From a virus (Duplodnaviria; Heunggongvirae; Uroviricota; Caudoviricetes): a DNA stretch of 50,105 nucleotides. Shown here piece after piece: positions 42,001-45,000 of the stretch (within the stretch, counting starts at the first letter, position 1; each line of letters begins with the position of its first letter). A program made the position numbers. The DNA is taken from the IMG/VR virus record IMGVR_UViG_2630968414_000007; one strand, given 5' to 3'.

Positions 42001-45000
42001 CTCATGATGTTTTTTACCCAGAACGAATCCCGCTGGAGACGCCCAAACATTTCACAAATTTGTCTGTGAGTTCTGCCATCCAGCATCCGCATTGTCCGCA
42101 CGTCATTGGCCCATGCAGTCCAGTTGGGTTCTTTCGGTCTCGTGATCTCGCCATCATCGCTGGCCGCCTGCTCGTAAAGACTCACGATTCGTCCCCAGAT
42201 CCACTGTGCGCACACCAAATCTTCCTGACTTCCCCACTGGCGTTTTTTCGCACTGAACACAACCGCGTCAGGGTGTCGGGTTAAAAAATTCTGTTCAGCC
42301 GTCTGCGGGTCCGGTTGCGAAGCGTCCGGACAAGAAGATCTTTTATCTGACGGATCAGGTTTTAATACTGACGGATTGGGGTCAATCATCGCCCCCCTAA
42401 TCGGCAGTTTGTTATCAACAGTTGATCCATCAAAATTTGACGGGTCAACCGTTGAGGGGGCAATATTTGACGGGTCAACTGTTAACGGGTCATTTTTTGC
42501 CGGGCTAATTTTTCTTTTCGGTTTATATGACTCACGCGCCGCCGCAGCAGCTGCTTCGAGTTTTTCCACATTAAGCCGATAGATATTGCTTACATTACGC
42601 CCACCGACCTTACGCTCTTCCTTCGTCAGCCAGCCCTCTTTCGCCAGTTCTGCAATAGCCGATTTCACTGTGGATTCACTTCTTGCACCGATCTGACGCC
42701 GGATAGTTTCAATGGCAGGCCATGACACGCCCTCGTCATTGCTGTAGTCTGCAAGACGGGCCATAACCGCCACCCTGGATAAGATCATGCCGGTGAAGGC
42801 GCACCCTTCCCAGACAAGACCATGAAGCTTGCTGCTCATAAAACCCCCGAACACCGTGCTTTTAGTGCATCACCACAGCATTCCCTGCCGGGCCGCCGCG
42901 ATTCATCTGGTCATACAAAACAACCGCTGACGCAACAAAATCATCGACATCCTTCACCAGCCGATCCCTCCGTTCGACGATCTCACGGTAATATTCAGAA
43001 CTGTGGCTGCGCATACGGGCCACCAGCAAAGGCGGCATCGCCTTTTCGATCGCCGGTAACAGAGCCTGCATTTTTTCAACAGCATCAGGGGTGTCTTTAT
43101 CCAGCCAACGGAAAATTTTCTGGGTATTACGGGCCAGGGCTTCCGGATGGCTGTCGTCATACAGTTCCGGGAACGTCATTCCCAGCTCGAAATACGCTTT
43201 GGTAATTTTCGCAGCCGGTACTTTTTCGCCGTCCGGATGCGCCCAGACATTCATCGCCATGCGGATGTGTTCATGCTTGATTTTCATGAATCAACTCCAT
43301 CAGATAAGCATGCACTACAATCACCTTCAGCATGAACTACATGTGTTTGCCCCAAACGAATGCCGCTCGCATACTCAGGCCAAATAAGCTCCCAATCATG
43401 GGGTCGTAGCTCCGCCCTACTTACTTGGCCTTCCGTCGCAGATTCGATCATAAGGGCGCGGGTTGGAGATATAGCTGTTCGTCCAGACGCCATTTGCGAT
43501 AAGTAAGATGGCGATACACCAAGTCTGGCCGCGAATTTCTTAGCATCACCAACCCTTAATGATTTAATAAACTCTTTTAATGTCATACCTTCCTCGGTTT
43601 AGTGTTTTTTTGCGAGTTTAGTGTTTAATAAACCATTAAGTCAAGTATTTGCTTGTTTAGTGATTACTAAAGATAATTACCACATGCAAAAAAAAGAAAT
43701 TCGCCGTTTACGTCTCAAGGAGTGGTTTAAAGATAAAACTCTGCCACCCAAAGAGAAGAGCTACCTATCTCAACTAATGAGTGGGAGAGCCTCGTTTGGA
43801 GAAAAGGCTGCCAGAAGAATAGAGCAAACATACGGGATGCCGGAAGGGTATCTGGATGCGGAATACGCAGAACAACCGGGGGGTTCTCCACCACATGCAG
43901 GGTTAACGTCTAATCAACTGGAATTATTGCAGATTTTTTCAGCCTTCCCTGAGGATGAGCAACGCCAGATAATCAGCGAGTTAAAGCAGAAAAAAGAATC
44001 AATGGAAGATCTCATAGCGAGATGGATTGCGGCGCAAAAATGCCGCCGCGCCTGAGTTATAAAACCGGAGGAAACATGAATAGAGCCCTTTCACCAATGG
44101 TTTCTGAATTTGAAACCATTGAACAAGAAAACAGTTACAACGAATGGCTGCGTGCGAAAGTAGCAACGAGCCTTGCAGATCCGCGCCCAGCAATTCCCCA
44201 TGACGAAGTTGAGCGCAGAATGGCAGAACGCTTTGCTAAGATGCGCAAGGAACGGAGCAAGCAGTAAAATGTTACCCGTGTTATGGCTTGAAAGCGCAGA
44301 TACCGACCTAGATGATATAACTAGTTATATTGCTCGTTTCGACATAGATGCGGCTGAACGCTTATGGCAGCGATTAAGGGGTTGTGTGCTGCCGTTATCC
44401 GAACATCCGTATTTATACCCACCAAGCGACAGAGTACCTGGCTTGCGTGAGATTGTAGCCCACCCTAACTATATAATTCTATACCGCGTAACAACATCAA
44501 GCGTTGAAGTAGTAAACGTGATCCACGCAAGACGCCAGTTTCCCTAACTTTCACTACCAATAGAAACATAACAACCGCAACGACTTTATCAAAAGCGTTG
44601 TGTTTGTTATGTCCCGCGGTTTAGTTTTTACTTGACTTAAGTTTAATGTTTATTAAACTAAAAATACCAACCCACCCCGCCCCACAGAACGCAGGGAAAT
44701 ACTTCGAGTTACCCGGCAGTGGTCAGGGGTTAAGTAGCCAGCCCGAGGCGTATGAACATGACGGCAGGGTTCAACTTTAATAACTATGCAGCAGGTTTTT
44801 GTTCCGCTACCCCGGCGTTAAGGGGAAACAGAGGGTTTCTCAGTGGGCGAAGTCAAACATCAGAATGGAAGGCATCCCGGGATCGGCAAAGAAGCAGCAA
44901 TGGCGCTTTATATTGACATCAGCGCCATTGCAGGACAGGTAAGAGTTATCAGAGCGGTAACTAAGCGGTATGCGCCTTTACTTCAGAAAGTCTCTGGTGA

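What the first reader, a model, noticed from the sequence alone, without database searches (positions are those of the whole stretch)
42412..42528. Replication origin inside the initiator gene: palindromic 11-mer iterons at exact 30-bp spacing
TCAACNGTTGA occurs three times with a 30-bp period, interleaved with TTTGACGGGTCAAC repeats and followed by an AT-rich segment, all within the initiator coding sequence. The iteron sequence differs from lambda's and defines the replication specificity of this prophage.
Basis: partly seen in the sequence, partly recalled or inferred. Interest (0 to 1): 0.4.

Follow-up and report, generated by a model that had tools for sequence, protein, structure and literature searches.

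The report
Prophage replication origin inside initiator gene
The repeats are most likely the binding sites of a lambda-style replication origin, sitting inside the initiator gene of the cryptic E. coli O157:H7 prophage CP-933P/Sp12; it is an ordinary kind of element in an undescribed version, and its function has not been tested.

Summary
Only two of the three palindromes are exact TCAACNGTTGA; the third is TCAACTGTTAA. The basic unit is 15 bp, not 30: six head-to-tail units with a TCAA-N3-TTGA core and a G/C-rich 4-bp spacer (42411-42500).

The array lies in the predicted disordered linker of a 320-aa initiator with a winged-helix N-domain (41877-42839, minus strand). This gene follows cro/cII analogues and precedes a DnaC-type loader gene.

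About 80 relatives from Enterobacterales carry a 15-bp array at the same place. Codon third positions in the unit core are the best-conserved bases, while the encoded residue varies (S/P/L/A). So selection acts on the DNA, not the peptide. Repeat sequence tracks N-domain type. Unrelated N-domains fused to the same C-domain carry different repeats, including phi80 gene 15, whose repeats are annotated as gp15 binding sites.

Verdict: a predicted lambdoid origin, a new member of a known kind. Initiator binding and origin firing are untested, and the host prophage is defective.

The parts
42411..42500 (-). Iteron array: six head-to-tail 15-bp units. Read on the gene strand they are GCAAAAAATGAcccg, TTAACAGTTGAcccg, TCAAATATTGCcccc, TCAACGGTTGAcccg, TCAAATTTTGAtgga, TCAACTGTTGAtaac. 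The cores are at + strand 42490, 42475, 42460, 42445, 42430 and 42415. Three cores are perfect TCAA-N3-TTGA; three deviate by 1-3 bases.
   Evidence: Family conservation pattern.
42382..42392 (-). Isolated, degenerate seventh unit: GCGATGATTGA on the gene strand. Relatives have a perfect TCAATGGTTGA flanked by GGG and CCCC at this position.
   Evidence: The Erwinia, Mixta and Morganella loci show GGGTCAATGGTTGACCCC.
42335..42378 (-). Family-conserved low-stability element downstream of the array: (G/A)ATCCGTCAGTA and GATCCGTCAGAT 21 bp apart, then AAAAGATCT. It is the candidate DNA-unwinding or helicase-entry region. Its promoter-distal edge is the mosaic joint with the C-domain module.
   Evidence: (family D5). 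Joint. Same AAAAGATCTTC junction in phi80.
42501..42534 (-). It is the least stable 30-mer in the gene and an alternative unwinding site.
   Evidence: Absent in SfIV-type relatives.
41877..42839 (-). Initiator gene (320 aa; a GTG at 42854 would give 325 aa). Winged-helix N-domain aa 1-105, disordered linker aa 108-174 that carries all the DNA elements, helical C-domain aa 178-300, DnaT-like tail aa 300-320.
41130..41870 (-). DnaC/IstB-type helicase-loader gene directly downstream of the initiator.
   Evidence: PMC2669165 states that Sp12 has a DnaC-type loader.
42862..43586 (-). ydaS (cro analogue, 43284-43586) and ydaT (cII analogue, 42862-43287). These upstream genes share the rightward early operon that transcribes through the origin.
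   Evidence: PMC8630535.

Best explanation
The array is the initiator-binding part of a lambda-style, bidirectional (theta-type) replication origin. It is embedded in the interdomain linker of the initiator gene of prophage CP-933P/Sp12.

Proposed mechanism (all steps inferred):
1. Transcription from the pR-like promoter through ydaS-ydaT produces the initiator.
2. Dimers of its N-terminal winged-helix domain bind the palindromic TCAA-N3-TTGA cores, which are packed every 15 bp, and build a nucleoprotein complex.
3. That complex destabilises an adjacent low-stability segment. The conserved GATCCGTCAG/AAAAGATCT segment at 42335-42378 is the more likely one; the allele-specific A/T stretch at 42501-42534 is the alternative.
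4. The C-terminal domain and tail bring in host DnaB through the phage DnaC-type loader encoded next door.

Shown here: the anatomy, DNA-level purifying selection on the repeat cores, co-inheritance of repeat type with N-domain type, and homology of the C-domain to phi80 gp15.

Inferred only: binding, unwinding, loader recruitment and firing.
For: 1. Context. The gene order is repressor (paaR2) | cro-like ydaS | cII-like ydaT | initiator | DnaC-like loader (PMC8630535; PMC2669165). The initiator matches PHROG 391 'replication initiation O-like' at E = 1.6e-114.

2. Placement. The AlphaFold model has a winged-helix domain (aa 1-105), a disordered linker (aa 108-174) and a helical C-domain. The array codes for aa 114-143, so it lies in the linker, as the origin does in lambda O. 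Pfam HTH_36 matches. The closest folds are dimeric winged-helix regulators of the PadR/MarR/ArsR types.

3. DNA-level selection.
- In nine arrays of the CP-933P subfamily (E. coli, Erwinia, Mixta, Edwardsiella, Morganella), unit position 3 is A in 51/51 units and position 9 is T in 50/51. Both are codon third positions.
- Position 1 varies (TCA/CCA/TTA/GCA, encoding S/P/L/A).
- The spacer flips between CCCC and GGGG, which changes the peptide from DP to EG. This is what a symmetric DNA site would allow.
- In 327 units of the SfIV subfamily, third-position information is 1.73, 1.15 and 1.41 bits. In the N-domain of the same genes it is 0.63 bits.

4. Specificity modules.
- N-domain type a goes with CAA-N3-TTG in 11/11 genes. 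Type b goes with TCArAwTyyGA in 66/73.
- E. coli alleles with >90% identical C-halves but an unrelated N-domain carry a different repeat, GGTCAAAATG x5, in three reading frames.
- Rac YdaU (DUF1376 N-domain) has AAGCAGATGTTCAA x4.
- phi80 gp15 has a Phage_rep_O N-domain and a C-domain 36% identical to this one (E = 4e-26). The four repeats at 21-bp spacing in mid-gene are annotated in the GenBank record as gp15 binding sites.

5. Copy number changes by whole units: 15-bp indels within the allele, and 4-11 units across the family.

6. Low-stability DNA flanks the array. In 68 of 80 relatives the least stable 30-mer of the gene lies downstream of the array, mostly 40-60 bp past its end, at a block with conserved synonymous sites.
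Against: - There are no experimental data for this family. I found no paper that describes these repeats.
- Sp12 did not excise or replicate in O157 Sakai, and its integrase is disrupted (PMC2669165). Activity of this particular copy is therefore unknown.
- The O157 copy departs from the commoner allele at one core (TTGC for TTGA) and has lost one GATC.
- The AT-rich flanks are only moderately AT-rich (GC about 0.40), and which one melts is unresolved.
- The 15-bp spacing is not a whole number of helical turns, unlike the 21 bp annotated in phi80 and the roughly two-turn spacing I recall for lambda.
- Units within one array are related by descent, and related genera share ancestry. The conservation counts are therefore not independent observations.
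- My choice of unit register used the 'CA' dinucleotide. This affects how positions are labelled, not whether they are conserved.
Confidence: 0.78

Rival explanations
1. The repeats are only a peptide repeat (STVDP/SNxxP) in a flexible, disordered linker. Replication slippage generated them, and the DNA has no function of its own.
For: The array lies in a linker with pLDDT about 30. The 15-bp period equals five codons. Copy number varies by whole units. Linkers rich in Ser, Asp and Pro are common.
Against: The encoded residues vary (S/P/L/A; DP versus EG) while codon third positions are invariant. The N-domain control shows synonymous sites are otherwise scrambled, at 0.63 bits. The units are palindromic, which a peptide repeat does not require. 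The alternative allele keeps its repeat in three different reading frames.
Confidence: 0.06
2. The repeats are initiator-binding sites, but they serve control rather than initiation. Possible roles are autoregulation, a transcriptional roadblock, copy-number handcuffing or exclusion of a competing phage. Unwinding and helicase loading would occur elsewhere in the prophage.
For: Repeat type tracks N-domain type, which fits any binding role. The flanking AT-rich tracts are weak. Ectopic lambda origin copies can inhibit phage growth (PMC4488673, abstract; PMC3349717).
Against: The position and order match lambda and phi80, where the mid-gene repeats are the origin (PMC7466680). No promoter-like site lies in or near the array. 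The only less stable DNA in the 1.9 kb I profiled is the immunity-region promoter segment.
Confidence: 0.09
3. The constrained feature is a nucleic-acid secondary structure: an mRNA hairpin that controls initiator translation or stability, or a hairpin formed in single-stranded DNA.
For: The region folds better than shuffled controls: z = -4.1 as RNA and -3.7 as DNA. The SfIV and Edwardsiella arrays do the same, at z = -5.4 and -6.3.
Against: Any array of palindromic units folds well. What is conserved is the sequence of every unit, not pairing between particular units. The unit centres and spacers vary without compensating changes. No Rfam family matches. Whole-unit indels would disrupt a fixed fold.
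Confidence: 0.04
4. An overlapping antisense gene (the + strand ORF 42376-42582, 68 aa) constrains the sequence.
For: An antisense frame stays open across the array in 79 of 81 family genes.
Against: The open stretch varies from 41 to 191 codons, and I did not look for a conserved start. A stop-free repeat unit is open by construction. Because the core is a palindrome, the antisense frame has the same pattern: third positions conserved and first positions variable. Coding therefore does not explain the pattern on either strand.
Confidence: 0.01

Closest known systems
ori-lambda inside gene O of phage lambda, and the Stx-phage variants with six iterons
   Same: Repeated, dyad-symmetric initiator-binding sites plus an AT-rich tract in the middle of the initiator gene, between the DNA-binding N-domain and the loader-recruiting C-domain. 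The gene sits in the pR operon after cro and cII, and a helicase-loader gene follows (PMC7466680).
   Different: The N-domain is Pfam HTH_36, not Phage_rep_O. The units have 11-bp cores every 15 bp; from memory, lambda has 18-19-bp iterons about two helical turns apart. The loader is DnaC-type, not lambda P. There is no experimental evidence.
ori of phage phi80 inside gene 15 (GenBank JX871397 annotates four gp15 binding sites)
   Same: The C-terminal domain is homologous: 36% identity, E = 4e-26. The order is the same: repeats, then an A-rich tract ending in AAAAGATCTTC, then the C-domain. The upstream ydaT of CP-933P is reported as homologous to phi80 CII (PMC8630535).
   Different: phi80 has a Phage_rep_O N-domain, unrelated iterons (GGGAA/TTCCC type) at 21-bp spacing, and a lambda-P-type gp14.
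Replication modules of SfII, SfIV, phiP27, Yersinia YeP2 and Klebsiella prophages (initiators annotated 'replication protein O' or 'primosomal protein I')
   Same: The N-domain family is the same, at about 50% identity. A 15-bp array occupies the same position, and the GATCCGTCAG pair follows.
   Different: The core is TCAAAATCTGA rather than TCAA-N3-TTGA. Many of these phages lack a DnaC-like gene and have a dam methylase or another gene next to the initiator. I found no description of their origins.
Rac prophage ydaU-ydaV region of E. coli K-12 (Rac carries the active origin oriJ, per PMC3945230)
   Same: The layout ydaS-ydaT-initiator-DnaC-like loader is the same, as is the C-terminal IPPGFRG tail. 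The initiator gene has mid-gene repeats next to low-GC DNA.
   Different: The N-domain is DUF1376. The repeats are AAGCAGATGTTCAA at 33-bp spacing. I could not confirm from the held literature that oriJ maps to these repeats.
Iteron plasmids (Rep proteins with winged-helix domains, such as pPS10 RepA, R6K pi and RK2 TrfA)
   Same: A winged-helix initiator binds tandem repeats next to an AT-rich unwinding element (general knowledge; PMC4980987).
   Different: In plasmids the iterons are intergenic direct repeats of about 17-22 bp, bound by monomers. Here they lie inside the coding sequence, have a 15-bp period and have palindromic cores that suggest dimers.

Membership tests
Lambdoid origin embedded in the initiator gene (ori-lambda type) | Several tandem initiator-binding repeats with internal dyad symmetry inside the initiator ORF, at the interdomain linker | tested here: met
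   Six 15-bp units with a palindromic TCAA-N3-TTGA core at 42411-42500. They code for aa 114-143 of the disordered linker, aa 108-174.
Lambdoid origin embedded in the initiator gene (ori-lambda type) | AT-rich, easily melted tract directly next to the repeats | tested here: inconclusive
   Two modest low-stability 30-mers flank the array: 42505-42534 (-33.2 kcal/mol) and 42338-42367 (-34.2). The window mean is -41.7 with sd 3.9. The downstream one is conserved in 68 of 80 relatives. GC is only about 0.40, and the side that melts is unresolved.
Lambdoid origin embedded in the initiator gene (ori-lambda type) | Two-domain initiator: N-terminal sequence-specific DNA binding, C-terminal recruitment of the helicase loader | tested here: met
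   HTH_36 winged helix at the N-terminus. C-domain homologous to phi80 gp15. PHROG 391 'replication initiation O-like' at E = 1.6e-114. The functions are inferred, not assayed.
Lambdoid origin embedded in the initiator gene (ori-lambda type) | Repeat sequence co-varies with the N-terminal domain, giving type-specific origin recognition | tested here: met
   Type a with CAA-N3-TTG in 11/11; type b with TCArAwTyyGA in 66/73. Swapped N-domains on the same C-domain carry different repeats.
Lambdoid origin embedded in the initiator gene (ori-lambda type) | Location in the rightward early operon after cro/cII, followed by a helicase-loader gene | tested here: met
   ydaS/ydaT lie upstream and a DnaC-type loader downstream (PMC8630535; PMC2669165).
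Lambdoid origin embedded in the initiator gene (ori-lambda type) | Initiator binds the repeats, and the fragment supports initiator-dependent replication | not testable with these tools
   This needs footprinting and a plasmid replication assay. Sp12 showed no replication in Sakai, but it cannot excise (PMC2669165).
Pfam PF04492 Phage_rep_O (lambda O N-terminal domain family) | Significant match of the N-terminal domain to the Phage_rep_O profile | tested here: not met
   No PF04492 hit at E <= 0.01 for the window protein. phi80 gp15 hits it at E = 6e-25.
PHROG 391, replication initiation O-like | Full-length profile match | tested here: met
   E = 1.6e-114 over residues 1-320 of the protein and positions 1-298 of a 298-position profile.
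Iteron plasmid oriV | Intergenic array of direct repeats of about 17-22 bp, bound by Rep monomers | tested here: not met
   The array is inside the coding sequence, has a 15-bp period and has palindromic cores.

The most novel reading that the evidence does not exclude
The family may open DNA with a different geometry from the lambda O-some. The palindromic sites are packed head to tail every 15 bp, about 1.4 helical turns. That spacing would place winged-helix dimers in a continuous helical filament around the duplex, rather than in phase on one face.

A second element, GATCCGTCAG(TA) x2 plus AAAAGATCT, has conserved synonymous sites and is shared by subfamilies with different iteron specificity. 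It could be a common helicase-entry site or a Dam/SeqA-controlled site.

The DnaT-like C-terminal tail (SEPDxxIPPGFRG) could be the handle that recruits host or phage DnaC-DnaB. That would link phage initiators to the origin of the host dnaT-dnaC operon.
Probability: 0.15. Interest if true: 0.55.

Novelty: new member of a known kind. Interest (0 to 1): 0.3.

Why it matters
The result gives a concrete, testable origin map for a replication module found in about 28% of complete E. coli genomes. It covers the iteron cores, the candidate unwinding element and the module boundary. The same module occurs in serotype-converting Shigella phages, the Stx2e phage phiP27 and Klebsiella prophages.

In O157:H7 several defective prophages coexist and interact. 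Knowing which prophages share origin-initiator specificity bears on which can be replicated in trans after induction.

The family is also a clear natural example of a coding sequence shaped by a DNA-binding-site constraint: third codon positions are fixed while the amino acids drift. The four interchangeable N-domain/iteron modules on related C-domains show how replication specificity is swapped between phages.

None of this changes the general picture established with lambda.

Tried and rejected
- Rfam scan of 41800-43700 at E <= 1: nothing.
- Promoter and terminator scan: nothing in or next to the array. The two promoter-like hits are both in the immunity intergenic region, at about 43560-43640.
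- Sequence search against solved structures: only the C-terminal tail matches, to DnaT. There is no solved relative of the N- or C-domain.
- Foldseek against the PDB: only generic winged-helix regulators, with no hit at E <= 0.001.
- Literature searches for oriJ, Sp12, SfV/SfIV origins, and the iteron strings themselves: no description of this origin. The SfV genome paper is not held.
- DnaA boxes: one perfect consensus, TTTTCCACA at 42562. It is specific to this allele and falls in codons for NVEKL, so I did not count it as part of the origin.
- oriC-like 13-mer: GATCTTTTATCTG at 42337 has two mismatches, and 23 such hits occur in the window. It is not significant on its own.
- GATC clustering in the O157 copy is unremarkable: two sites in 60 bp.
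- Antisense ORF: rejected.
- I did not locate the second copy of the origin segment in strain FRIK944.
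Full report
**Where the window comes from**

The 978-bp initiator ORF is 100% identical to E. coli O157:H7 strain FRIK944. There it lies in a prophage next to ynfA/ynfB/speG. That prophage also carries dicB, ydfC, relB/parE-type toxin-antitoxin genes, hokD, a Q antiterminator and a frameshifted integrase. This is the cryptic lambdoid prophage CP-933P of strain EDL933, identical to Sp12 of strain Sakai. Jurenas et al. 2021 studied its immunity region and called this gene a homologue of lambda o (PMC8630535). Asadulghani et al. 2009 list Sp12 as having apparently intact O and P functions with a DnaC-type loader. They also report a disrupted integrase and no detectable excision or replication (PMC2669165).

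**Checking the observation**

- TCAACNGTTGA is exact at 42415 and 42445. The third copy, at 42475, is TCAACTGTTAA.
- TTTGACGGGTCAAC is exact at 42436 and 42466.
- Both repeat finders report a 15-bp unit under the 30-bp one.
- Read on the gene (minus) strand, the array is GCAAAAAATGAcccg, TTAACAGTTGAcccg, TCAAATATTGCcccc, TCAACGGTTGAcccg, TCAAATTTTGAtgga, TCAACTGTTGAtaac, spanning 42500 down to 42411.
- The common core is the palindrome TCAA-N3-TTGA. It occurs four times in the window against 0.99 expected, and three of the four are consecutive at 15-bp spacing.
- The array encodes five-residue repeats (TVDPS/NIAPS/TVDPS/NFDGS/TVDN). I therefore asked whether the peptide alone forces the DNA pattern. 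In 20,000 synonymous recodings the mean number of cores was 0.18 against 3 observed (P = 2.5e-4). None reached the observed lag-15 autocorrelation.
- Recent tandem duplication could also give this result, so the comparative data below carry the argument.

**The gene and its neighbours**

The ORF at 41877-42839 (minus strand) hits Pfam HTH_36 at aa 30-76 and, weakly, DnaD_N. It matches PHROG 391 'replication initiation O-like' over its full length at E = 1.6e-114. It does not hit Phage_rep_O, the lambda O family.

The next gene (41130-41870) is a DnaC/IstB-type AAA+ loader. Upstream lie ydaT and ydaS, the cII and cro analogues, and the divergent repressor gene paaR2.

An AlphaFold model built from 32 homologues gives four regions:
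- a winged-helix domain, aa 1-105;
- a disordered linker, aa 108-174 (pLDDT about 30);
- a helical C-domain, aa 178-300;
- a disordered tail.

All the DNA elements discussed here fall inside the linker. The N-domain's nearest solved folds are dimeric PadR/MarR/ArsR-type regulators, but only at E about 5e-3.

**Family comparison**

Phages with the same N-domain at about 50% identity all carry a 15-bp array at the same place. These include SfIV, SfII, phiP27, YeP2 and several Klebsiella and E. coli phages. Their core is TCAAAATCTGA and copy number ranges from 4 to 8.

A scan of one genome per species returned 80 prophage loci across Enterobacterales. In nearly all intact genes, lag 15 is the strongest autocorrelation in the linker.

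Two subfamilies emerge.

*Subfamily a (CP-933P-like: E. coli, Erwinia, Mixta, Edwardsiella, Morganella).* The units are nCAAnnnTTGA plus SSSS. Across 51 units from 9 arrays:
- unit position 3 is A in 51/51 and position 9 is T in 50/51, and both are codon third positions;
- position 1 varies, so the first codon reads TCA, CCA, TTA or GCA (Ser, Pro, Leu, Ala);
- the spacer flips between CCCC and GGGG, which turns Asp-Pro into Glu-Gly.

This is the reverse of what selection on a peptide gives. It is what a two-fold symmetric protein-binding site gives.

*Subfamily b (SfIV-like; 327 units from 64 arrays).* Third-position information is 1.73, 1.15 and 1.41 bits. In 40 codons of the N-domain of the same genes, information is 1.63, 1.75 and 0.63 bits by codon position, and fourfold-degenerate sites are scrambled.

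Caveats: units and lineages share ancestry, so these counts are not independent. My register choice used the 'CA' dinucleotide, which affects only how positions are labelled.

**Repeats travel with the N-domain**

- N-domain type a pairs with CAA-N3-TTG cores in 11/11 genes. Type b pairs with TCArAwTyyGA in 66/73. The exceptions include a Proteus/Providencia clade that uses TCAAAATCTGT.
- Many E. coli genomes match only the C-terminal half of the gene, window 41879-42344. In three such alleles the C-half is over 90% identical to the window's. The N-domain is unrelated, and the linker holds a different repeat, GGTCAAAATG five times in three reading frames, followed by an A-rich stretch.
- Rac YdaU has a DUF1376 N-domain and the same C-terminal tail. 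It carries AAGCAGATGTTCAA four times next to low-GC DNA.
- phi80 gene 15 has a Phage_rep_O N-domain and a C-domain 36% identical to this one (E = 4e-26). Its GenBank record annotates four mid-gene repeats at 21-bp spacing as gp15 binding sites. They are followed by an A-rich tract ending in AAAAGATCTTCGTCCG.
- The window has GATAAAAGATCTTCTTGTCCG at the corresponding place, and this is where the mosaic joint falls.

The exchangeable module is therefore [N-domain + repeats + low-stability tract], joined to a C-domain module. From established lambda genetics, that arrangement is how origin specificity is organised.

**Which AT-rich tract?**

42505-42534 is the least stable 30-mer in the gene at -33.2 kcal/mol, against a window mean of -41.7 with sd 3.9. 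However, it lies upstream of the array in the direction of the gene, and it is absent from SfIV-type relatives.

In 68 of 80 family genes the least stable 30-mer lies downstream of the array, mostly 40-60 bp past its end. It sits at a conserved pair of GATCCGTCAG elements 21 bp apart. Their synonymous sites are almost fixed among the 20 distinct versions of this block: GAT 19/20, CCG 17/20, TCA in all 14 Ser codons, GTA in all 18 Val codons.

In the window this element is 42335-42378, where the least stable 30-mer (42338-42367) scores -34.2 kcal/mol. The order of repeats followed by an AT-rich tract, read in the gene's direction, matches lambda and phi80. I favour this element as the unwinding or helicase-entry site, but I cannot exclude the upstream tract.

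**Variation within the allele**

Among 80 IMG/VR contigs with an identical N-domain:
- the centre base of the last palindrome varies (T, C or G);
- spacers vary;
- whole 15-bp units are deleted in two contigs;
- one 21-bp GATCCGTCAG unit is deleted in one contig.

The O157 copy has TTGC where most copies have TTGA, in the unit at 42460. It also has AATC where most have GATC, at about 42375-42378. These may be neutral variants or early decay in a defective prophage.

**Rival explanations**

- *Pure peptide repeat.* Contradicted by the codon-position pattern and the palindromy.
- *RNA or single-strand structure.* The region folds well (z = -4.1 as RNA, -3.7 as DNA), and the SfIV and Edwardsiella arrays do too. 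Any palindromic array does this. What is conserved is each unit's sequence, with no compensatory changes, and no Rfam family matches.
- *Antisense ORF.* A frame is open across most arrays, but its length ranges from 41 to 191 codons, and I did not look for a conserved start. Because the core is a palindrome, this frame shows the same anomalous third-position pattern.
- *Control sites rather than the origin.* This cannot be excluded computationally. There is no promoter nearby, and the layout matches characterised origins.

**Mechanism and verdict**

The most likely reading (confidence about 0.78) is an iteron array of a lambda-style origin. Winged-helix dimers would bind TCAA-N3-TTGA cores every 15 bp. 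Melting would occur in an adjacent low-stability tract. DnaB would be recruited through the C-domain and the DnaC-type loader. Binding, melting and firing are all inferred.

The element is a new member of a known kind. The architecture is textbook. The N-domain family, the core sequence, the 15-bp packing and the conserved GATCCGTCAG element are undescribed in the literature I could search.

It is common, present in 1519 of 5426 complete E. coli genomes with up to three copies per genome. It is therefore not unique to this prophage.

Noticed in passing
window 41877-41939 (last 21 codons of the initiator): The C-terminal tail, AQRCVNHISEPDTEIPPGFRG, matches the extreme C-terminus of host primosomal protein DnaT (PDB 2ru8, 6aep, 9zbt; E = 0.01-0.03). 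The tail is also in Rac YdaU, SfIV and Kp4866-6 initiators. It may be a shared handle for DnaC/DnaB. The 2026 preprimosome paper (PMC13377028) does not discuss it.
   Followed up: partly
window 42335-42378; same block in L007-L091: A pair of GATCCGTCAG elements 21 bp apart, followed by AAAAGATCT, has nearly fixed synonymous sites across genera. Subfamilies with different iteron cores share it. It contains Dam sites, and many relatives (L009, L010, L011, L014) have a dam methylase gene directly after the initiator.
   Followed up: partly
L004:1799-2764, L005:1799-2764, L006:1797-2762 (E. coli MEI003, TUM9757, GCM39): An alternative initiator allele has the same C-terminal half, an unrelated N-domain with no Pfam hit, and five GGTCAAAATG repeats in three reading frames followed by an A-rich tract. 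It is presumably a different origin specificity. Two of the three loci lack the DnaC-like gene.
   Followed up: partly
L175:2972-3063 (E. coli K-12 Rac, inside ydaU): YdaU has a DUF1376 N-domain. It carries four AAGCAGATGTTCAA-like repeats (spacings 33, 33 and 12 bp), perfect 10-11-bp inverted repeats and a GC dip to 0.35. These are a candidate for the sequence basis of oriJ, which I could not confirm from held papers.
   Followed up: partly
window 42562-42570 (+): A perfect DnaA-box consensus, TTTTCCACA, lies about 30 bp from the upstream A/T tract. A one-mismatch box, TTATCAACA, at 42412 overlaps the first iteron. About 0.12 perfect boxes are expected in the 1.9-kb region. The perfect box is allele-specific, not conserved across the family.
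   Followed up: partly
NZ_CP016625.1 (strain FRIK944), second place not located: The origin segment 42320-42560 occurs twice in this same O157:H7 genome and up to three times in other E. coli. Two resident prophages may therefore share initiator-origin specificity, which could allow activation in trans.
   Followed up: no
window 40335-41104 (-): The DUF1627 gene downstream of the loader is split into two overlapping ORFs (40335-41003 and 40925-41104). RefSeq annotates it as frameshifted. This is further evidence that the prophage is decaying.
   Followed up: no
window 43621-44547 (+): This is the paaR2-paaA2-parE2 toxin-antitoxin and repressor locus of CP-933P described by Jurenas et al. 2021. 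A fourth TCAA-N3-TTGA match (TCAAGCGTTGA, 44497) lies in parE2 and is probably chance.
   Followed up: no
window 42376-42582 (+): A 68-aa antisense ORF reads STVDPS/DGSTVEG/DGSTVNG, mirroring the sense peptide because the repeats are palindromic. It is judged an artefact of the repeat symmetry.
   Followed up: yes
L021:1501-2541 (Edwardsiella anguillarum) and L072:1501-2622 (Providencia): These arrays are expanded to at least 8 and to 11 units respectively, through 45-bp or 75-bp super-repeats. This shows that copy number changes quickly within the family.
   Followed up: no
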